Virus record (IMG/VR): IMGVR_UViG_3300032315_000647
Coordinates: 50,746-114,745 of that record
Length of the DNA: 64,000 nucleotides
Direction: 5' to 3' (one strand)
Source of the DNA: a virus
The position numbers and the translations under genes were made by a program. This document shows positions 1,377 to 64,000 of this stretch, piece by piece. Within the stretch, counting starts at the first letter, position 1. Every line of letters begins with the position of its first letter. The notes below the pieces were generated by a model. It was given only the letters and a program-made list of their open reading frames with translations, was not told the origin of the DNA and searched no databases.

Positions 1377-4300
1377 TTAAGCTGTTAAGTTACCAATTAA
1401 ATACCATTCGTCAGTAGCCACCTTCATAAGTGTTACAGCACCATATTGGGCATTGAGCTTACGCCAACTGTTAGCGCTTCGCAAAGTTACGCCAGCACAA
1501 GCACAAACAGTAGTTTGACCAGCACCATATTGCGTAACATTCAAACAAGTACCAATTGGGAAAGCCACTTGACTACATGCTGGAACACATATGTTGTTTG
1601 CAGCTCCGACATTCATTTCAACCGTCTTACCAGAATCAGCCAAAACTAATGCATAAGAAGCAGCTTGTCTATTGAACTGTGTCAGTCCATTAAGTTTACC
1701 ACAAGAACAAACGTTATTGAAATATGCTGTACAAGCATCAAGACCAGTGAGTCCACAGCCCATAACAATTGTATAATTGTTACAAGCTAAACTGCTCTGA
1801 CCAAATGCTAAGGATCCACAACAGAATGCCTTGTTTGATTGTCCTCCTATAATAGCACTACTTCTACCAAGAGCACAGTTGTCAAATCCTCCTCCTACAC
1901 TAGCATAAACACCTGATGCAGAGTTAGCACTACCTCCTGCTACAGTTGCATAAGTGCCTGCAATATTAACTGCACCCCCACCGACAGTACCGTAGTTTGA
2001 ACACACACAATTTCGTGATCCACCTCCAACTGTTGCTGCTACAGCTGAACCAGCAAATGGACATATTAATCTATTTCTGTCTCCACCACCAATAGATCCA
2101 AAAGGTGTGTTGACATCTATTATATTACAAAAACCTCCACTTATTACCGAACAACAGCTGTTCAGTATATTACAATTACCTCCTCCTATTGTACTATGTA
2201 CTACATTACAAAGCTTATTTGAAGATCCTCCAACAATAGCTGAATAATATCCACCGTCAATTGCATTAGTACATCCTGATCCTATTAATGAAAATTGTCC
2301 AAAAAGCATTGAGTTGCCCTGACCTGAACTTATTCCAGAACCATTACTGTAAGTTGATATAGTATTACCATAACCGCCTGATATTACTGATTGACCAGAG
2401 AAATTTAATATTAAGTTAAGACTACCTCCTCCAACAGTTGAATCAGTTGAATTAATACTGACACAATTTCCACTACCTCCTGAGATTGTTGAATAGTATC
2501 CTGAGGCTGTGTTATTACATCCTCCACTAACAGTGGCATAATTTCCTGTAGTGGTGTTGAGTTGACCACAACGAACACTAGAACCAGTCCCTGCACCAAG
2601 TATAATTACAGGCGCACTTCCTGAAAATGATGTACCAGAACTTCCAGAAGTTCCAGACGTACCAGCCCCTCCAGTAACACCGCTTGTTCCACTAGTTCCA
2701 CTAGTTCCAGTTCCACCATTAACTCCAGAAGTACCTGATGTACCGTTATTACCATTAACTCCAGAGGTACCGCTAGTACCTCTAGTACCTGATGTTCCAG
2801 ACGTACCTGAAGAACCAGCAGCACCATTAACTCCACTGGTTCCACTCGTACCACTTGTACCTGCTGCACCAGTTCCACCATTTACACCAGATGTACCTGA
2901 AGTTCCTGAAGAACCTGCTGCACCGTTGATTCCTGACGTACCACTAGTTCCATTGTTACCATTAACACCGCTAGTACCAGATGTTCCATTTACACCAGAG
3001 GTTCCAGACGTTCCATTATTACCGTTCACTCCAGAAGTTCCACTTGTTCCCCTAGTGCCCGATGTTCCTGATGTACCACTTGTTCCAGCAACACCGTTAA
3101 CACCACTTGTACCTGAAGTGCCAGAACTACCTGCTACACCGTTAACTCCTGAAGTGCCAGAAGTACCACTGCTTCCAGCTGCACCATTTACTCCTGATGT
3201 TCCGCTTGTTCCTGAACTGCCAGCAGCTCCATTAACACCACTAGTCCCACTAGTACCATTTACACCCGAAGTACCTGATGTGCCAGCTGCGCCATTCACA
3301 CCAGACGTTCCACTTGTTCCGTTAACACCTGAAGTTCCTGAAGTTCCGTTCACTCCACTAGTTCCAGAAGTTCCGTTATTTCCATTCACCCCAGATGTAC
3401 CAGAGGTTCCTCGTGTACCTGATGTACCAGAAGTCCCTGTTGTACCACTAGTTCCAGATGTACCAGATGACCCTGCTGCACCGTTAACACCTGATGTACC
3501 GCTAGTACCTGATGATCCTGCAGCTCCGTTAGCTCCACTAGTGCCACTTGTTCCAGATGTTCCATTCACTCCACTTGTACCACTAGTCCCAGAGGTGCCA
3601 TTATTTCCGTTAACACCAGAGGTCCCAGAAGTCCCTGTAGTACCAGAGGTTCCACTAGTACCAGATATACCTGACGTACCGCTACTACCATTTGCACCAG
3701 AAGTTCCAGATGTGCCATTCACACCTGAAGTACCGCTCGTTCCTGAAGTGCCGTTAGCTCCAGATGTCCCAGAGGTTCCATTTATACCAGAAGTTCCGCT
3801 AGTTCCATTGTTACCAGAAGTACCAGACGTACCTGTAGTTCCACTAGTGCCAGACGTACCATTAATCCCTGAAGTACCACTTGTACCATTAATGCCACTA
3901 GTCCCTGATGTACCATTGATTCCACTGGTTCCTGAAGTACCATTGACACCAGAGGTTCCATTTGTACCGTTGATTCCACTAGTGCCACTCGTTCCTCTAG
4001 TTCCACTAGTTCCTGATGTTCCACTAGTTCCATTCACTCCAGAGCTACCCGAAGTGCCTGTGGTACCACTTGTACCTGAGGTTCCATTGATTCCTGAACT
4101 ACCAGAAGTACCGTTCACTCCAGACGTACCGCTCGTACCATTAACTCCACTCGTACCACTCGTTCCTGATGTGCCAGCTAAGCCTGAAGTACCACTAGTT
4201 CCATTAATTCCAGATGTGCCTGATGTACCAGTTGTACCACTAGTGCCATTTAAGCCTGAAGTTCCAGATGTTCCGTTCGTTCCATTAATTCCAGAAGACC

Positions 4301-6782
4301 CACTGGTTCCACTTGTGCCATTTATTCCTGACGTGCCACTTGTACCTGAAGAACCATTATTACCAGAAGTGCCACTTGTACCATTTATCCCAGAGCTACC
4401 AGATGTCCCACTTGTTCCTGTAACACCACTAGTTCCAGATGTACCGTTTGCGCCTGAGGTTCCACTTGTTCCATTAGTTCCATTTGCACCTGAAGACCCA
4501 CTAGAGCCAGATGTTCCGCTGGTTCCATTAGCCCCACTGCTTCCAGAGGTACCGCTAGTTCCTGTGGTGCCTGAAGTTCCACTGCTACCAGATATTCCAC
4601 TAGAACCCGAAGTTCCAGAACTTCCACTTGAACCAGATGTACCATTAGTGCCATTATTTCCATTAACACCACTAGTTCCACTTGTTCCATTTGCGCCTGA
4701 CGATCCACTACTTCCACTAGTTCCTGAAGTCCCATTTATTCCTGACGTACCGTTAGTTCCAGATAAACCTGATGTTCCACTCGTACCTGTGCTGCCTGAA
4801 GTTCCAGAGGTACCGTTTATACCAGAGGTCCCACTAGTTCCGTTAATTCCAGATGAGCCAGAACTGCCAGATGTACCGTTGATTCCAGATGTACCAGACG
4901 TTCCGTTTATACCTGAACTACCTGCTGTTCCTGAAGATCCACTAGATCCAGAACTACCGTTTGTTCCACTAACACCACTTGTACCTGAGCTACCGTTTGA
5001 ACCAGAAGTTCCTGATGTCCCATTATTACCGCTAGTTCCAGAGGAACCAGATAATCCTGAAGTTCCACTACTACCTGATGAACCACTTGTTCCTGATGTT
5101 CCAGGTAAACCATTATTACCTGAAGTTCCACTTGAACCTGAAGTTCCTGAGGTTCCAGAAGAACCGCTCGTCCCTGTTATACCTGAAGAACCAGATGTTC
5201 CTGAAACTCCACTAGTCCCTGAAGACCCACTTATACCAGACGTACCATTAGTTCCGTTACTACCAGATGTACCAGAAGTTCCGTTGTTTCCTGAAGTTCC
5301 ACTTGACCCACTGGTTCCAGAACTACCATTTATTCCAGAACTGCCAGATGTTCCATTTATTCCTGAGCTTCCGCTCGATCCTGAGGTACCATTTATTCCA
5401 CTAGTACCAGACGTGCCATTCAATCCTGATGAACCTGAACTACCAGACGTACCACTTGTACCATTAGTTCCTGAACTACCTGAGGATCCATTAGTCCCAT
5501 TTATACCTGAGCTACCACTTGAACCAGATGATCCACTAGTGCCTGAAGTGCCGTTGTTACCACTCGTGCCAGATGAACCGTTTATTCCTGATGTACCTGA
5601 GGTTCCATTAGAACCACTTGTTCCTGAACTTCCACTAGTTCCTGCAGTTCCTGGTAAACCACTACTTCCACTTGATCCACTTGTTCCTGACAAACCAGAT
5701 GTACCAGATGTACCATTGGAACCTGAAGAACCACTAGTTCCTGCTGTACCATTAATTCCAGATGTCCCACTAGACCCTGAACTACCGCTCGTACCAGCAC
5801 TACCGTTTATTCCACTTGAACCAGAAGTTCCATTTATACCCGAAGATCCTGATGATCCATTAGTACCAGATATTCCACTGCTACCAGATGTACCATTGAG
5901 CCCACTTGTTCCAGAGCTACCAGATGTTCCTGAGGTTCCATTACCACCTGAGGTGCCACTTGATCCGCTAGTGCCAGAGGTTCCTGAAGTGCCACTAGTT
6001 CCTGATCCTCCACCACCTGTTATTACCACTTGAGCATCACCACCTCCCAAATCATTCACTGTAGCACCTGAGAATGTAATTTTGTCAACGTTAGTCACTG
6101 TGGTTGTGCCATCAGTCACTTCAACTATTGAAGATGTCCCACTGCTACCAGAGGTGCCAGAGGTGCCTCTTGTTCCTGAACTACCTGAACTGCCTGAACT
6201 TCCATTTGTGCCTGATACTCCACTTGATCCTGATGTTCCATTGCTACCTGACACACCACTAGACCCTGAGGTTCCGTTACTACCTTGTATTCCGCTTATT
6301 CCAGAGGATCCAGAAGATCCAGATGTACCATTAGAACCACTCAATCCAGAAGTTCCTGAACTTCCAGATGTTCCAGCTGTTCCTGATATACCAGAGCTTC
6401 CACTAGTGCCGTTAGACCCTGATGTTCCTGATGTTCCTGAGCTACCGCTAGTGCCTGAACGTCCAGAGGATCCTGATGTACCACTACTTCCTGAACCACC
6501 TGATCCTGAACCACCTGATTCACAAACAGCCTCTAGTTTTTGTAATATTACCTCAAGATTATCATTTGTTCTAATCCCTGTACAGATTAAATTGGGTCCT
6601 TCATAGAAGACACAAGTTGCGTTCAATATGACAGGGCATGGCTTTATGGAACACAGCACTGTAGGTGTTGTGGGTATATTTATAGGAGGGCAGTAAATAG
6701 GAACATGGATACTACCAGAAGTACCAGAGGATCCACTAGATCCTGAACCACCATAAGATAATATAGAAGGTAGTACGTTCAT
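1377..6782 (-). CDS. Long collagen-like (Gly-X-Y) fibre protein with beta-roll/YadA-head-like repeats and a C-terminal tip domain
   Basis: 1801 aa; Cys-rich N-terminal adaptor; >1200 aa of GTS/GSS/GIN/GVN triplets; ~14-aa (S/A)T(V/I)xGGxxNxA repeats; C-terminal YALVLADSGK...FPIGT...QYGAGQ...LMKVATDEWYLIGNL domain common in phage fibres. Confidence 0.8.
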   Translation of the reverse strand: MNVLPSILSYGGSGSSGSSGTSGSIHVPIYCPPINIPTTPTVLCSIKPCPVILNATCVFYEGPNLICTGIRTNDNLEVILQKLEAVCESGGSGSGGSGSSGTSGSSGRSGTSGSSGTSGTSGSNGTSGSSGISGTAGTSGSSGTSGLSGSNGTSGSSGSSGISGIQGSNGTSGSSGVSGSNGTSGSSGVSGTNGSSGSSGSSGTRGTSGTSGSSGTSSIVEVTDGTTTVTNVDKITFSGATVNDLGGGDAQVVITGGGGSGTSGTSGTSGTSGSSGTSGGNGTSGTSGSSGTSGLNGTSGSSGISGTNGSSGSSGINGTSGSSGINGSAGTSGSSGSSGTSGINGTAGTSGSSGSNGTSGTSGLSGTSGSSGSSGLPGTAGTSGSSGTSGSNGTSGTSGINGSSGTSGNNGTSGTSGSSGSSGSSGINGTNGSSGSSGTNGTSGTSGSSGSSGLNGTSGTSGINGTSGSSGSSGINGTSGSSGINGSSGTSGSSGTSGNNGTSGTSGSNGTNGTSGISGSSGTSGVSGTSGSSGITGTSGSSGTSGTSGSSGTSGNNGLPGTSGTSGSSGSSGTSGLSGSSGTSGNNGTSGTSGSNGSSGTSGVSGTNGSSGSSGSSGTAGSSGINGTSGTSGINGTSGSSGSSGINGTSGTSGINGTSGTSGSTGTSGTSGLSGTNGTSGINGTSGTSGSSGSSGANGTSGTSGVNGNNGTNGTSGSSGSSGTSGSSGISGSSGTSGTTGTSGTSGSSGANGTSGTSGSSGSSGANGTNGTSGTSGANGTSGTSGVTGTSGTSGSSGINGTSGTSGNNGSSGTSGTSGINGTSGTSGSSGINGTNGTSGTSGLNGTSGTTGTSGTSGINGTSGTSGLAGTSGTSGTSGVNGTSGTSGVNGTSGSSGINGTSGTSGTTGTSGSSGVNGTSGTSGTSGTRGTSGTSGINGTNGTSGVNGTSGTSGINGTSGTSGINGTSGTSGINGTSGTSGTTGTSGTSGNNGTSGTSGINGTSGTSGANGTSGTSGTSGVNGTSGTSGANGSSGTSGISGTSGTSGTTGTSGTSGVNGNNGTSGTSGTSGVNGTSGTSGTSGANGAAGSSGTSGTSGVNGAAGSSGTSGTSGTTGTSGTSGTRGTSGTSGVNGNNGTSGTSGVNGTSGTSGVNGTSGTSGVNGAAGTSGTSGVNGTSGTSGVNGAAGSSGTSGTSGVNGAAGSSGTSGTSGVNGVAGSSGTSGTSGVNGVAGTSGTSGTSGTRGTSGTSGVNGNNGTSGTSGVNGTSGTSGVNGNNGTSGTSGINGAAGSSGTSGTSGVNGGTGAAGTSGTSGTSGVNGAAGSSGTSGTSGTRGTSGTSGVNGNNGTSGTSGVNGGTGTSGTSGTSGVTGGAGTSGTSGSSGTSFSGSAPVIILGAGTGSSVRCGQLNTTTGNYATVSGGCNNTASGYYSTISGGSGNCVSINSTDSTVGGGSLNLILNFSGQSVISGGYGNTISTYSNGSGISSGQGNSMLFGQFSLIGSGCTNAIDGGYYSAIVGGSSNKLCNVVHSTIGGGNCNILNSCCSVISGGFCNIIDVNTPFGSIGGGDRNRLICPFAGSAVAATVGGGSRNCVCSNYGTVGGGAVNIAGTYATVAGGSANSASGVYASVGGGFDNCALGRSSAIIGGQSNKAFCCGSLAFGQSSLACNNYTIVMGCGLTGLDACTAYFNNVCSCGKLNGLTQFNRQAASYALVLADSGKTVEMNVGAANNICVPACSQVAFPIGTCLNVTQYGAGQTTVCACAGVTLRSANSWRKLNAQYGAVTLMKVATDEWYLIGNLTA
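2630..6510 (-). repeat. Gly-X-Y (GTS/GSS/GxN) low-complexity coding repeat, interrupted at ~6000-6130 by a ~40-aa knob
   Basis: Gly at every third residue; imperfect 9-nt periodicity in the DNA. Confidence 0.9.
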
Positions 6783-62102: not shown

Positions 62103-62309
62103 ATGTCAAAACTGAATTTAGTAGTGCTTGATGTGCAAAAAACAGGCATCAAGTCACATGGTCCTACAGATGATAGTGGGGCAGTGAGAATCCTCATGAA
62201 AATATGTCAAGATCAACCTCTTGCATATTTTGAGCAAGTTCCAGGATTGTACATTGCTGACTTAGAGACAGGAACAATTAGAAAACCTGTTTTAAAATTA
62301 GAGATATGA
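62103..62309 (+). CDS. Hypothetical protein
   Basis: 68 aa; ATGA overlap with thyX. Confidence 0.65.
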   Translation: MSKLNLVVLDVQKTGIKSHGPTDDSGAVRILMKICQDQPLAYFEQVPGLYIADLETGTIRKPVLKLEI

Positions 62310-62983
62310 ACAACACTGTAGAACTAATAGGCTGGTATGGAAGTGATGAAGTTCATGCTCAAAGTGCTTGGACATCAACAAATAGGGATTTAACACCTGA
62401 AAAGGTGGAAAGAATCCCTAATTTGTTAGAGATGTTGGCAGAGAATGGTCATGAAACACCATTTGAGAAGTCAAGCTTGCATTTTCTGGTTACATGTGAT
62501 CAAGCATCACATATACACTTGCTTAAGCATAGGATAGGTGTAAGTATTAATGCAGAGAGTGCAAGGTATAAGGAGTTGAAAGAGGACAAGTTTTATGTTC
62601 CTGAAGATTGGGATGATATACCATATAATGGATACCCAAATTATCCTTTCATGTTTAAAGATGGTACAAAATTGGATTGGATTGAAATACTTAACAACTA
62701 TACAAAAATTGGTAATCAACTATACCACGATTGTTTAGATGATTTAACACCTATTTTAGGAAGGAAAAGAGCAAAGGAATCAGCAAGGTTCTTCAAGACC
62801 ATGAATAGCCAAATCACTATGGATGTGATGTTTAACTTTAGGTCATTTGTTCACTTTCAAATGCTGAGAAATCATCATGATGCCCAGTTGGAGATTGCTG
62901 ATATAGCACAGAACATGTTAATGCTTGTTAAGAACATAGAAGGAAAACCATTTGAGCATACACTAAAAGCCTTTAAACTGTGA
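62306..62983 (+). CDS. thyX: Flavin-dependent thymidylate synthase
   Basis: GHETPFE, KHRIGVSINAESARY (RHRx7SxR-like), AKESAR, NFRSFVHFQMLR..HAQLEI. Confidence 0.9.
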   Translation: MNNTVELIGWYGSDEVHAQSAWTSTNRDLTPEKVERIPNLLEMLAENGHETPFEKSSLHFLVTCDQASHIHLLKHRIGVSINAESARYKELKEDKFYVPEDWDDIPYNGYPNYPFMFKDGTKLDWIEILNNYTKIGNQLYHDCLDDLTPILGRKRAKESARFFKTMNSQITMDVMFNFRSFVHFQMLRNHHDAQLEIADIAQNMLMLVKNIEGKPFEHTLKAFKL

Positions 62984-63258
62984 AATACAGAATAAACGAG
63001 ATCAAGTACAAAGGCAAGACAATGTACGAACCTCAAGTCTGCAAAAAAGTAAAGACTAAAATACCAACAGGGGAGTGGGAAGTAGTAGAGACTTGGGATA
63101 GGATTATAGGAAAATATAGTATTATCACTTATGAAACTTATTATTACACGCTTCCAACAACTATAGAAGAAGCAGAGGAAGTAATAAAAGAGTACCACAG
63201 AAAACTTCAACCACCTACAGAACCCATCATCAAGACAATAAAAGAGTTTGAGCTATGA
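62980..63258 (+). CDS. Hypothetical protein
   Basis: 92 aa; GTGA overlap with thyX. Confidence 0.65.
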   Translation: MKYRINEIKYKGKTMYEPQVCKKVKTKIPTGEWEVVETWDRIIGKYSIITYETYYYTLPTTIEEAEEVIKEYHRKLQPPTEPIIKTIKEFEL

Positions 63259-63328
63259 AAAAGTCAACATGGATTGTATTAGGAACAACGTATGTAGGTC
63301 TTATTATTTACACATTAAACCAATTATT

Positions 63329-63454
63329 ATGAAAAAACTCATTATTTTAGTAGTTATTGCTATATTAGTGTTGCAAAGCTGTGCAACAGGATATGGCTGC
63401 AGAGGAAGATCAAAAGACATGACAGGAACATCAGGACGTTTCAAAGCAATATAA
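63329..63454 (+). CDS. Small lipoprotein (41 aa)
   Basis: Internal ATG of track ORF 63248-63454 gives MKKLIILVVIAILVLQSC (signal peptide II, lipobox LQSC) behind an AAACCAA leader. Confidence 0.7.
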   Translation: MKKLIILVVIAILVLQSCATGYGCRGRSKDMTGTSGRFKAI

Positions 63455-63455
63455 C

Positions 63456-63740
63456 ATGAAAAACACGTACGAAAGACTTAAACCAGAATACAAGAAAGCG
63501 CTTGAACAGTATTATGCAAAACCTTATCCAAATACTTATGCATATGCAAAAGAAAGATTGGAAAAGTATTTCTCTATAGGAGAAGTACCTTTTGGCGTGA
63601 TGGTGGATCTTAAATTTGCTGTTCAAGCATGTTCTCAAGAGTTTCGTGGTAAGAATATGACTATATCAGAAATGTATGATATGTTCTATAAGCCTGATGA
63701 AATGGAGAGCGTAAAGGTTGATGATTTTGTAATCTCTTAA
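63456..63740 (+). CDS. Hypothetical protein
   Basis: 94 aa. Confidence 0.65.
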   Translation: MKNTYERLKPEYKKALEQYYAKPYPNTYAYAKERLEKYFSIGEVPFGVMVDLKFAVQACSQEFRGKNMTISEMYDMFYKPDEMESVKVDDFVIS

Positions 63741-63750
63741 AAATAAATGT

Positions 63751-63826
63751 TGTTGTTCCCTTGAGAAAGGAGATGAGTAAATGTAGCTAGTAGTGTTGCT
63801 ACCAACACAGGGGACTTCTCATCCCC
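63751..63826 (+). ncRNA. Candidate structured RNA: three-way junction plus kissing-loop hairpin
   Basis: TGTTG/CAACA, TTCC/GGAG, GTAGC/GCTAC and GGGGA/TCCCC stems; loops TGAGAA and TTCTCA are complementary. Confidence 0.5.
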
Positions 63827-63835
63827 ACTTTTAAC

Positions 63836-63995
63836 AGTCAGGTGGCGAAATTGGTAGACGCTTTATGTATTTGTGATATAAAAAAATTGCTATGGTCAGA
63901 GTCTCGGCAGAGTTACCGCATAGGTGGTGTCCAGAACACCTAAGCAATACATAAGATGGTGTACAACAATACAGGTTCGAATCCTGTCCTGACTA
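63836..63995 (+). tRNA. tRNA-like RNA (Leu-type D-arm) with anticodon loop replaced by a ~74-nt insert
   Basis: Acceptor AGTCAGG/CCTGACT, D-arm GGCGAAATTGGTAGACGC, T-arm ACAGG-TTCGAAT-CCTGT; 9-bp TTATGTATT/AATACATAA stem encloses 63872-63945; no canonical anticodon and no encoded CCA. Confidence 0.75.
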
Positions 63996-64000
63996 CTAAA

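What the first reader, a model, noticed from the sequence alone, without database searches (positions are those of the whole stretch)
63751..63826. Compact kissing-loop RNA immediately 5' of the tRNA-like gene
P1 TGTTG(63751)/CAACA(63803) closes a junction with P2 (loop CTTGAGAAA) and P3 GTAGC/GCTAC. A following GGGGA/TCCCC hairpin displays TTCTCA, the exact complement of TGAGAA in the P2 loop. Alternative pairings (GATGAG/CTCATC, GTGTTG/CAACAC) could make it a switch. I do not recognise a known riboswitch or ribozyme core. Sitting 9 nt before a tRNA-like 5' end, it may be a processing ribozyme or a co-transcribed ncRNA released by RNase P. tRNA-linked ribozymes are known in gut phages, but those are HDV-like and lie 3' of the tRNA.
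Basis: partly seen in the sequence, partly recalled or inferred. Interest (0 to 1): 0.7.

Follow-up and report, generated by a model that had tools for sequence, protein, structure and literature searches.

The report
Conserved kissing-loop RNA of phage tRNA arrays
The 76-nt element is a real copy of a widespread, phage-only, apparently unnamed small structured RNA: a three-way junction plus a hairpin whose loop pairs with a junction loop; it sits among phage tRNA and tRNA-like genes and its function is unknown.

Summary
The window sequence alone is not statistically unusual: MFE z is -0.6, and the 6-mer TTCTCA occurs 85 times in the window. Comparison with other phages settles the matter.

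- **Family size.** The core pattern occurs in more than 119 IMG/VR phage contigs. I collected 110 distinct copies. There are usually one to three copies per phage.
- **Absent from cells.** A scan of 185,579 prokaryotic species genomes gave no true copy.
- **Not in Rfam.** No Rfam 15 family matches.
- **The window copy belongs.** It scores 66.6 bits (E 7e-11) against my covariance model.
- **Structure.** P1, P2, P3, P4 and the loop-loop pairing UGAGAA/UUCUCA all show compensatory changes.
- **Ribozyme idea.** I found no resemblance to any known ribozyme.
- **Context.** Copies lie in phage tRNA arrays. About 45% sit 5-7 nt before a GUCAGG-type tRNA-like scaffold; others precede true tRNAs or other small RNAs.
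- **Cultured homologue.** Cellulophaga phage phi14:2 carries a divergent copy, probably inside an intergenic region reported as abundantly and persistently transcribed.

Best reading: a stable small RNA co-transcribed with tRNAs and probably released by RNase P. Its molecular function is unknown. The scan had not noted this motif on other DNA.

The parts
63749..63755 (+). P1 5' strand. The family register is UGUGUUG; here it reads GTTGTTG, and only 63751-63755 (TGTTG) pair.
   Evidence: P1 is 95.6% paired across 110 copies. It shows a U-A to C-G double change in L098:1383-1478.
63756..63759 (+). P2 5' strand, TTCC.
   Evidence: Compensatory changes: UUUC/GAAA in L011 and UCAC/GUGG in phage phi14:2.
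63760..63768 (+). L2, the 9-nt loop CUUGAGAAA. UGAGAA is the 5' partner of the loop-loop pairing.
   Evidence: Nearly invariant in the family. Covaries with L4.
63769..63772 (+). P2 3' strand, GGAG. 63772 G forms a G-U pair with 63756 T.
63773..63782 (+). J2/3, a purine-rich single-stranded linker. It varies in sequence and length across the family.
63783..63802 (+). P3 hairpin, GTAGC-tagtagtgtt-GCTAC. This is the variable arm; its 3' strand abuts P1.
   Evidence: The terminal stem averages 4.77 bp against 3.82 +/- 0.13 in shuffles (z 7.5) over 95 distinct copies. Compensatory changes between relatives: GTAG/CTAC and GTGG/CCAC; TAGGG/CCCTA and TAGTG/CACTA.
63803..63809 (+). P1 3' strand, CAACACA.
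63810..63826 (+). P4 hairpin, GGGGA-CTTCTCA-TCCCC. UUCUCA in loop L4 (63815-63821) is the 3' partner of the kissing pair.
   Evidence: Four P4 pairs show changes on both sides. Against the consensus GAGGA/UCCUC, the window copy itself carries an A-U to G-C change.
63827..63835 (+). 9-nt spacer, ACTTTTAAC. It would be the 5' leader of the downstream tRNA-like RNA.
   Evidence: Most family spacers are 5-7 nt and end in AUA.
63836..63995 (+). Neighbouring GUCAGG-type tRNA-like gene. It has acceptor, D and T arms, and about 100 nt in place of the anticodon arm. It is context for this finding, not part of the motif.
   Evidence: Rfam tRNA 36.7 bits with a 100-nt insert. ARAGORN finds it only in intron mode. 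The same shell with other interiors occurs in 63 IMG/VR contigs.

Best explanation
Window 63749-63826 encodes one copy of a widespread family of small phage RNAs, about 80-105 nt long, that I could not find named anywhere.

**Fold.**
- A three-way junction made of three helices.
- P1 has up to 7 bp and a conserved sequence.
- P2 has 4 bp and the invariant 9-nt loop CUUGAGAAA.
- P3 is a hypervariable hairpin.
- Directly after P1 comes a 4-5 bp hairpin, P4.
- The 7-nt loop of P4 (UUCUCA) pairs with UGAGAA of the P2 loop.

**Likely biogenesis and role (inferred).**
- The RNA is made on the same strand as the phage's tRNA and tRNA-like genes and is co-transcribed with them.
- RNase P cutting at the 5' end of the downstream tRNA-like RNA would set its 3' end.
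- Where a tRNA lies upstream, 3' processing of that tRNA would set its 5' end.
- I think it then acts as a stable non-coding RNA, most likely by binding a conserved host or phage factor.

**Shown versus inferred.** The fold and the family are shown. The processing route and the trans-acting role are inferred. The molecular target is unknown.
For: **Family.**
- More than 119 IMG/VR contigs hold the core pattern.
- There are 110 distinct copies aligned to model R1, and the window copy scores 66.6 bits.
- Whole-contig searches find 1-3 copies per phage and one copy in the window's own genome.
- It is phage-only. The single hit among 185,579 prokaryote genomes lacks P1 and P4.

**Structure.**
- 95.9% of cells pair, and 9 pairs change on both sides, against 2.3 in shuffles.
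- P2: UUCC/GGAA becomes UUUC/GAAA in L011 and UCAC/GUGG in phi14:2.
- Kissing pairs: G10-C becomes U-A in L219 and L224, which have different P4 backgrounds.
- Kissing pairs: A9-U becomes G-C and G10-C becomes A-U in L098.
- Kissing pairs: G8-C becomes U-A in L217, L240 and L232.
- P3: z 7.5 against shuffles.

**Context.**
- The motif lies on the same strand as flanking tRNAs, inside tRNA arrays.
- It is 3-4 nt after a tRNA 3' end in about 20-25% of copies.
- It is 5-7 nt before a GUCAGG tRNA-like RNA in about 45% of copies. Elsewhere it precedes tRNA-Arg, Met, Asp, Phe or Leu, or other small RNAs.

**Expression (literature).**
- Cellulophaga phage phi14:2 has a homologue at 3128-3211.
- bioRxiv 10.1101/2020.03.07.982082 reports two long intergenic regions there, transcribed rightward, above most genes, from the earliest time point and without later decline.
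- Placing the homologue in one of these regions is my inference from the gene layout.
Against: - Neither discrete ends nor RNase P processing are shown.
- **No protein partner.** No protein family is shared by most flanks: the best cluster is in 24 of about 125 loci.
- **Conserved stems.** P1 and P2 are largely conserved in sequence rather than covarying, which could point to roles beyond pairing.
- **Steric doubt.** P2 and P4 each follow P1 with no linker. A stacked P2, 6-bp kissing helix and P4 (about 15 bp) would therefore have to be anchored at the two ends of a 7-bp P1, which looks strained. By my own reasoning this makes an intramolecular kissing contact questionable, so the pairing may be between molecules.
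- **Unrepaired or incomplete copies.** Some copies leave a loop change uncompensated (L222; the L226 group; L228). Some lack P4 (L231, L234). One has P4 only (L104:13601-13684).
Confidence: 0.5

Rival explanations
1. The L2-L4 complementarity acts between molecules. The RNA would then form dimers, rings or larger assemblies. This is how phi29 pRNA loops work, and GOLLD, ROOL and manA RNAs also build RNA-only assemblies.
For: - Covariation cannot tell pairing within one molecule from pairing between identical molecules.
- P2 and P4 both join P1 with no linker, so an intramolecular kissing helix looks sterically strained (my inference).
- The two halves can occur apart: a lone P4/L4 hairpin 0.8 kb from a full copy in L104, and P4-less copies in L231 and L234.
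- The same arrays hold GOLLD.
- Small phage RNAs that form cages and filaments are reported in bioRxiv 10.64898/2026.07.01.735769.
- The phi29 pRNA precedent is from my own knowledge.
Against: - There is no direct evidence of oligomers.
- In type-B copies (phi14:2) the UUCUCA element lies 6 nt after P1 with no evident hairpin. That spacing allows an ordinary intramolecular H-type pseudoknot.
- Rfam pRNA, GOLLD and ROOL models do not match.
Confidence: 0.15
2. It is a cis-acting 5' leader domain. It would help the downstream tRNA-like or small RNA to fold, be processed or survive, and would have no function of its own after release.
For: - It nearly always lies immediately 5' of another structured RNA.
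- The spacing to GUCAGG-type scaffolds is tightly distributed: 5-7 nt in 40 of 46 cases.
- Other GUCAGG scaffolds carry different hairpin modules in the same upstream position.
Against: - The downstream partners are very diverse: scaffolds, ordinary tRNAs and unrelated small RNAs.
- Most GUCAGG scaffolds lack the motif: only about 9 of 63 loci have it within 7 kb.
- The motif's variable region is no more complementary to its own downstream insert than to permuted partners.
- Short spacers are normal in phage tRNA arrays.
Confidence: 0.15
3. It is a new class of self-cleaving ribozyme that helps to process the tRNA array.
For: - Its nucleotides are highly conserved around a pseudoknotted compact fold.
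- It is linked to tRNAs in phages, as theta ribozymes are (PMC10879173).
- It is about the size of small ribozymes.
Against: - No ribozyme family matches at E<=10.
- The order of helices is incompatible with the HDV-like nested double pseudoknot.
- Few conserved unpaired nucleotides remain once L2 and L4 pair.
- The distance to the downstream RNA varies from 2 to 12 nt or more, and there are only 1-3 copies per genome against dozens of tRNAs.
- The motif starts 3-4 nt after an upstream tRNA end, not at it.
Confidence: 0.07
4. It is a free-standing small-molecule aptamer, for example a sponge for a host defence signal, or a sensor.
For: A three-way junction locked by a loop-loop contact, with invariant junction-proximal nucleotides, is a common aptamer architecture (purine-riboswitch type; my own knowledge). 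The family is phage-only.
Against: - There is no expression platform and no downstream ORF.
- The kissing partner lies outside the junction.
- No riboswitch family matches.
- No ligand clue comes from neighbouring genes.
Confidence: 0.05

Closest known systems
phi29-family packaging RNA (pRNA, Rfam RF00044)
   Same: Both are small phage-encoded RNAs built on a three-way junction, with two loops whose complementarity is kept by covariation. The phi14:2 homologue lies near the genome's left end and, if my placement of it is right, in an early and abundant transcript.
   Different: There is no sequence or model match. One of the pairing loops lies outside the junction. The host phages have ordinary large-terminase and portal genes. 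The motif sits in tRNA arrays and occurs in phages of 45-320 kb. Whether its pairing is intermolecular is untested.
Small stable RNAs inside phage tRNA clusters (T4 species 1 and 2, rnaC/rnaD), and GOLLD/ROOL, which sit beside phage tRNAs
   Same: All are non-tRNA structured RNAs embedded in, or next to, phage tRNA genes, presumably co-transcribed, and of unknown function. GOLLD occurs in one of the same arrays, L014:1293-1710. The tRNA proximity of GOLLD and ROOL is noted in PMC5737381.
   Different: The fold and size differ entirely: about 90 nt against 120-140 nt (T4) or 400-800 nt (GOLLD, ROOL). There is no model match.
Theta (minimal HDV-like) ribozymes next to phage tRNAs (PMC10879173)
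   Same: Both are small structured RNAs directly adjacent to phage tRNA genes, and the motif often follows a tRNA 3' end.
   Different: - Theta ribozymes have the HDV nested double pseudoknot and cleave within +/-1 nt of the tRNA 3' end.
- This motif has a three-way junction plus hairpin.
- It starts 3-4 nt after the tRNA.
- It occurs 1-3 times per genome.
- It matches no HDV model.
tRNA (the D-loop/T-loop elbow)
   Same: The helix sizes echo a tRNA: a 7-bp P1, a 4-bp stem with a 9-nt loop, a variable arm, and a 5-bp stem with a 7-nt loop beginning UUC. As in the D-loop/T-loop contact, two loops touch.
   Different: The order of elements differs: the T-arm-like hairpin follows the 3' strand of P1. 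The loops pair by 6 Watson-Crick pairs rather than by the elbow geometry. Neither ARAGORN nor Rfam tRNA finds it.
Unnamed 'csRNA' catalogue predicted from IMG/VR (PMC10690425)
   Same: That study mined the same database for covarying intergenic structures, including tRNA-like ones. This motif may be one of its 8,495 numbered candidates.
   Different: I could not check this. The supplementary models are not held, and the main text describes no such motif.

Membership tests
The phage 3WJ/kissing-loop RNA family defined here (model R1) | P1 UGUGUUG/CAACACA closing a three-way junction | tested here: met
   The window has 5 of the 7 pairs (63751-55 with 63803-07).
The phage 3WJ/kissing-loop RNA family defined here (model R1) | P2 UUCC/GGAR with the 9-nt loop CUUGAGAAA | tested here: met
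   63756-63772 is identical to the consensus apart from a terminal U-G pair.
The phage 3WJ/kissing-loop RNA family defined here (model R1) | A variable P3 hairpin abutting the 3' strand of P1 | tested here: met
   GTAGC/GCTAC, with offset 0 to P1.
The phage 3WJ/kissing-loop RNA family defined here (model R1) | A P4 hairpin directly after P1 whose loop holds UUCUCA, complementary to L2 | tested here: met
   63810-63826. Overall score 66.6 bits, E 7e-11.
HDV-like / theta ribozymes | Nested double pseudoknot (P1-P2-P3-P1.1-P4), with the cleavage site at the ribozyme 5' end, at a tRNA 3' end | tested here: not met
   No Rfam HDV-type match at E<=10. The helix order P1-P2hp-P3hp-P1'-P4hp cannot be threaded onto the HDV topology. 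The motif starts 3-4 nt after upstream tRNAs.
HDV-like / theta ribozymes | Self-scission | not testable with these tools
   This needs in-vitro transcription and cleavage assays.
Hammerhead, twister, twister-sister, pistol, hatchet and hairpin ribozymes | The family covariance model and its conserved catalytic core | tested here: not met
   cmscan against all 4,227 Rfam 15 models, with permissive filters and E<=10, gave nothing overlapping 63741-63835.
tRNA | Cloverleaf with acceptor, D, anticodon and T arms in the canonical order | tested here: not met
   ARAGORN found nothing. Rfam tRNA hits only 63836-63995.
phi29 pRNA (RF00044) | Match to the family model | tested here: not met
   No match.
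phi29 pRNA (RF00044) | Three-way junction with two mutually complementary, covarying loops | tested here: met
   This is a resemblance in architecture only.
phi29 pRNA (RF00044) | The loop-loop pairing is intermolecular and builds a ring on the portal | not testable with these tools
   This needs native gels, trans-complementation of loop mutants, or cryo-EM.
GOLLD / ROOL | Match to the family model; size of 400 nt or more | tested here: not met
   No match in the window. The motif is about 85 nt. GOLLD is a separate gene in L014.
Riboswitch (cis-regulatory aptamer) | Lies in the 5' UTR of a regulated ORF and has an expression platform | tested here: not met
   It is followed by tRNA, tRNA-like or small-RNA genes, not ORFs. 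There is no terminator-like site after P4 in the window.

The most novel reading that the evidence does not exclude
The conserved UGAGAA/UUCUCA complementarity acts between molecules. This roughly 90-nt phage RNA would then self-assemble head-to-tail into dimers, rings or larger RNA-only structures. That would make it a second, independent pRNA-like or GOLLD/ROOL-like assembly principle, one that is widespread in environmental phages and encoded within tRNA arrays.
Probability: 0.15. Interest if true: 0.85.

Novelty: new variant of a known kind. Interest (0 to 1): 0.68.

Why it matters
Phage tRNA arrays are usually annotated as tRNAs plus "spacers". This element shows that one such spacer is a sharply conserved, pseudoknotted RNA.

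- It is shared by well over a hundred otherwise unrelated phage contigs of 45-320 kb.
- It is absent from cellular genomes.
- It is missing from Rfam.
- Its invariant loops and stems imply a specific molecular partner or activity.

A cultured model phage, the crAss-like Cellulophaga phage phi14:2, carries a homologue. It probably lies in a region already reported as one of the most abundant and persistent transcripts "of unknown function". The role of these long-puzzling phage ncRNAs can therefore be tested directly by genetics and biochemistry.

If the loop pairing proves to be intermolecular, or the RNA proves catalytic, the importance would rise sharply.

Tried and rejected
1. **Known families.** Rfam at gathering thresholds over the whole window, and at E<=10 over 63000-64000, gave only the neighbouring tRNA-like gene.
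2. **Thermodynamic significance of the single sequence.** Not significant: z is -0.6.
3. **Homologues through proteins.** The upstream 94-aa ORF has no relatives in IMG/VR and no PHROG match. blastn of window 63300-64000 against cultured phages found nothing.
4. **Recoding or suppressor context.** Code 11 already gives 90% ORF coverage. ARAGORN's 'SeC(tca) with a 73-nt intron' call for the neighbour is probably an artefact of intron mode.
5. **Alternative P2 (CCUU-GAGA-AAGG tetraloop hairpin).** Most copies can form it, but it shows no covariation. It is broken in L008, L011 and phi14:2, whereas the 4-bp stem with the 9-nt loop is kept there by compensatory changes.
6. **Guide-target idea.** Duplex energies between the motif's variable region and its own downstream insert are no better than with permuted partners.
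7. **A conserved neighbouring protein.** None. The best cluster is in 24 of about 125 loci and has no Pfam match.
8. **Cellular origin.** The one hit among prokaryote genomes (L213) is a chance match without P1 or P4.
9. **Synteny with phi14:2.** The upstream proteins are unrelated.
10. **Cellulophaga phage phi4:1.** There is only a 22.7-bit, poorly paired hit, which I treat as a false positive.
11. **My own regex parsers.** They produced many false positives. I dropped them in favour of the Infernal alignment.
12. **Strand test by G-U against A-C counts.** 43 against 28, which is not decisive.
14. **Published IMG/VR catalogue.** Its supplements are not held.

Full report
**Setting.** The window is the last 64 kb of a 114,745-base contig whose ends overlap by 32 bases, so the genome is a circle of about 114.7 kb. 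It has 37% G+C and reads well under the standard code. It encodes a phage portal, a large terminase and virion proteins. Its terminase is closest to those of Leptolyngbya phage Lbo-JY46 (40%) and Cellulophaga phages phi17:2 and phi4:1 (34%), with crAss-like phages at 27-29%. The finding lies in the 95-nt gap between a small ORF (63456-63740) and a tRNA-like gene (63836-63995). Rfam's tRNA model matches that gene only by skipping about 100 nt where the anticodon arm should be.

**Check of the observation.**
- P1 is 63751-55 with 63803-07.
- P2 is 63756-59 with 63769-72, and its loop is CTTGAGAAA.
- P3 is 63783-87 with 63798-802.
- P4 is 63810-14 with 63822-26, and its loop is CTTCTCA.

TTCTCA is the complement of TGAGAA. 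Taken alone this is not remarkable. The predicted energy is ordinary (z -0.6), and TTCTCA occurs 85 times in the window against 75 expected. No Rfam 15 family matches the element, even at E<=10.

**Homologues.**
- Searching IMG/VR for the 5' 25-mer of the neighbouring tRNA-like gene returned 63 contigs. One of them (L018) carried an obvious relative of the finding just upstream.
These gave 89 distinct copies.
- A covariance model (R1) recovered all of these plus divergent copies, 110 distinct sequences in total. The window copy scores 66.6 bits, E 7e-11.
- Whole-contig searches of 50 phage contigs (23-322 kb) found one copy in most, two in about eleven and three in one. The window's own genome has exactly one.
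- The same pattern scanned over one genome for each of 185,579 prokaryotic species gave a single hit. That hit lacks P1 and P4 and is a chance match. The element therefore appears to be confined to phages, mostly ones not integrated in sequenced hosts.

**Structure.** The consensus reads:

(U)GUGUUG | UUCC-CUUGAGAAA-GGAA | variable purine-rich linker | variable hairpin | (Y)CAACACA | GAGGA-CUUCUCA-UCCUC | AA.

- **Whole fold.** On the 110-sequence alignment, the full structure including the loop-loop helix is paired in 95.9% of cells. Nine pairs change on both sides, against 2.3 +/- 1.0 in shuffles (0 of 500 shuffles reach this). All slid controls fall to 38-57% pairing.
- **P4.** It covaries at four of its five pairs. 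The window copy itself has GGGGA/UCCCC where the consensus has GAGGA/UCCUC.
- **P1.** It is mostly conserved in sequence but shows U-A to C-G in L098:1383-1478.
- **P2.** Two foldings are possible: UUCC/GGAA with a 9-nt loop, or CCUU/AAGG with a GAGA tetraloop. Only the first is preserved by compensatory change. It becomes UUUC/GAAA in L011 and UCAC/GUGG in phage phi14:2. The tetraloop form shows no covariation and is broken in L008, L011 and phi14:2.
- **P3.** It cannot be aligned, but a stem abutting P1 is present far more often than in shuffles: mean 4.77 bp against 3.82 +/- 0.13, z 7.5. Close relatives differ by compensatory changes, such as GTAG/CTAC and GTGG/CCAC, TAGGG/CCCTA and TAGTG/CACTA, and GTAACTA/TAGTTAC and GCAACTA/TAGTTGC.

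**The kissing loop.** My first pattern fixed L2, so I scanned separately for L2 variants.
- **G10 to U.** It occurs in three true family members. Two of them (L219 and L224, which have different P4 types and variable regions) have the matching C-to-A change in L4 (UGAUAA with UUAUCA). The third (L222) does not.
- **L098:1383-1478.** It has L2 CUUUGAAAA with L4 AUUUCUA. That gives two compensated pairs and one broken pair.
- **G8 to U.** It is compensated (UUCUAG or UUCUAA) in L217, L240 and L232. It is not compensated in the L226/L227/L229/L236 group. G8 to A is not compensated in L228.
- **A9.** I found no A9 variants in IMG/VR.
- **With canonical L2.** Changes in L4 are wobble (C to U opposite G8 in L071 and L090) or fall on the terminal pairs.

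The central pairs are thus supported by independent double changes. Some copies are unrepaired.

The proposed alternative "switch" pairings use J2/3 and the P3 loop. These are hypervariable, and the pairings are already lost in the close relative L148.

**Within one molecule or between molecules?** Covariation cannot say. P2 follows the 5' strand of P1 with no linker, and P4 follows the 3' strand of P1 with no linker. If P2, the 6-bp kissing helix and P4 stack as kissing complexes usually do, a helix of about 15 bp would have to be anchored at the two ends of a 7-bp P1. By my own reasoning that looks strained, and I have no model to test it. Either the fold is sharply bent or the pairing joins two molecules. 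The latter is what happened historically with phi29 pRNA, whose loop complementarity was first drawn as an intramolecular pseudoknot (my own knowledge).

On the other hand, a "type-B" subfamily that includes phi14:2 has the UUCUCA element 6 nt after P1 with no evident hairpin. That geometry would allow an ordinary intramolecular pseudoknot. I keep intermolecular assembly as a serious rival and as the novel case.

**Genomic context.**
- The loci are phage tRNA arrays. Rfam finds dozens of tRNAs around the copies, and a GOLLD RNA in L014. ARAGORN finds 12 tRNAs in L224.
- The motif is always on the tRNA strand.
- About 20-25% of copies start 3-4 nt after the discriminator of an upstream tRNA or tRNA-like gene (...CCUGACUA-CAAA-UGUGUUG).
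- About 45% are followed, mostly 5-7 nt after P4, by a "GUCAGG" tRNA-like scaffold.
- The rest are followed by ordinary tRNAs (Arg-UCU, Met, Asp, Phe, Leu) or by other recurrent unidentified small RNAs.
- In L224 one copy sits between a tRNA-like gene and tRNA-Leu, with spacers of only a few nucleotides on each side.
- No protein family accompanies the motif. The commonest neighbouring cluster is in 24 of about 125 loci. Annotated neighbours include a T9SS-sorting (CHU_C) protein, which hints at Bacteroidota hosts, and an RNA-repair HAD domain.
- The motif's variable region is no more complementary to its own downstream insert than to permuted partners.

**A cultured homologue with expression data.**
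- blastn with a consensus copy found Cellulophaga phage phi14:2 (Crassvirales; host Cellulophaga baltica). R1 places a single copy at 3128-3211 on the + strand: 38 bits, P1 identical, L2 and UUCUCA identical, P2 compensated.
- GenBank annotates only tiny minus-strand ORFs there.
- Drobysheva et al. [quoted passage not shown] - From the gene layout, the two longest early-region gaps flank gp010: 2905-3589, which holds the motif, and 4102-4601, which overlaps a near-threshold tmRNA match. Equating these with the published regions is my inference, because the paper's numbering table is not available to me.

**What it most likely is and does.**
- **Shown:** a conserved, phage-restricted, pseudoknotted small-RNA fold on the tRNA strand, embedded in tRNA arrays.
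- **Inferred:** it is co-transcribed with its neighbours and excised by the tRNA-processing enzymes. RNase P at the downstream tRNA or tRNA-like gene would set its 3' end, and 3' processing of an upstream tRNA would set its 5' end. This resembles tRNA-punctuated processing. The RNA would then persist as a stable product.
- **Also inferred:** its invariant loops and stems suggest a specific partner. I cannot name that partner.
- **Ribozyme reading.** I rate a self-cleaving ribozyme as unlikely but untested. No known core is present, few conserved unpaired nucleotides remain, the spacing varies, and there are only 1-3 copies among dozens of tRNAs.
- **Cis-leader reading.** It fits the frequent coupling to GUCAGG scaffolds. 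It fits poorly with the diversity of downstream partners and with the many scaffolds that lack the motif.

**Novelty.**
- It is not in Rfam 15.
- My literature searches found no description.
- It may be one of the unnamed candidates in the IMG/VR csRNA catalogue (PMC10690425), which I could not inspect.
- Earlier notes of this scan describe similar arrays of small RNA modules and tRNA-Leu-like scaffolds in other phages. A sequence look-up found this motif nowhere else in the scan.

I class it as a new fold within a known kind of system: structured ncRNAs embedded in phage tRNA arrays.

Noticed in passing
window 63836-63995; loci L001-L063: The neighbouring tRNA-like gene belongs to a large family with a near-invariant shell. 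The 5' part is GUCAGGUGGCGAAAUUGGUAGACGC, and the 3' part is ACAGGUUCGAAUCCUGUCCUGACUAC. The interiors vary wildly, from about 13 nt (L172) or a plain hairpin (L104) to more than 150 nt. Copies are sometimes tandem. The exact 25-mer occurs in 63 IMG/VR contigs.
   Followed up: partly
window 63969-64000 and contig start (G000:C1:1-32): The contig ends repeat 32 bases, and the repeat lies inside the tRNA-like gene. The genome is therefore circular or terminally redundant, and the tRNA-like gene is complete only when read to the contig end.
   Followed up: yes
L064, L073, L076, L109, L129, L143, L147, L090, L105, L131, L155 (directly after the motif): A second recurrent RNA-like module follows the motif in at least 10 loci and was not identified. 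It reads ...GUGAACUUCGGUACCCAUACCGCUGACGAUGGGCUAAGUAAGAUACAAUUCC...GCCGAAGAGCU. Rfam gathering scans of L064 and L090 show nothing there.
   Followed up: no
L071, L094, L101, L110, L117, L135, L136, L140, L166, L055 (directly before the motif): Another conserved module precedes the motif in about 13 loci...GUUAAGAUUGGGACGAGACGGGUAUCCCAACACUAUCAACAAUAU. It contains a UUGGGA/UCCCAA hairpin.
   Followed up: no
L014:1293-1710: A GOLLD RNA (262 bits) lies in the same phage tRNA array as a motif copy (L014:10287-10395).
   Followed up: no
Cellulophaga phage phi14:2, KC821624.1:4031-4502 (L242:2401-2872): There is a near-threshold Rfam tmRNA match (46 bits against a gathering score of 47; E 2e-16) in the second long intergenic region of this crAss-like phage. 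GenBank annotates small minus-strand ORFs over both ncRNA regions (gp007-009, gp013-014); these are probably spurious.
   Followed up: partly
L226, L227, L229, L236, L240, L217, L232, L007:7505-7605, phi14:2 3128-3400: A 'type-B' version of the motif lacks the P4 hairpin. It continues into a longer conserved RNA...AAUGAGUUCUCAGCAAG[UAGUUA...UAACUA]CGUGACCCUACUCUUAU...AUAAGAAAGAGGGUGCUAA. A piece of this downstream part also occurs in Cellulophaga phages phi4:1 and phi17:2, at about 131.5 kb.
   Followed up: partly
L169:5843-6520, L136:5019-6614 and relatives: Neighbouring proteins include a HAD domain of 'Swiss Army Knife' RNA-repair proteins (11 loci) and a protein with a CHU_C type IX secretion sorting domain (12 loci). 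The latter hints at Bacteroidota hosts.
   Followed up: no
L224:1342-1477 and 1629-1712: One phage carries two copies with different loop pairs. The first is a degenerate copy with canonical UUCUCA. The second has the matched variant pair UGAUAA/UUAUCA.
   Followed up: partly
window 62306-62983: The ORF three genes upstream matches a phage thymidylate synthase family (phrog_85, E 3.5e-31).
   Followed up: no
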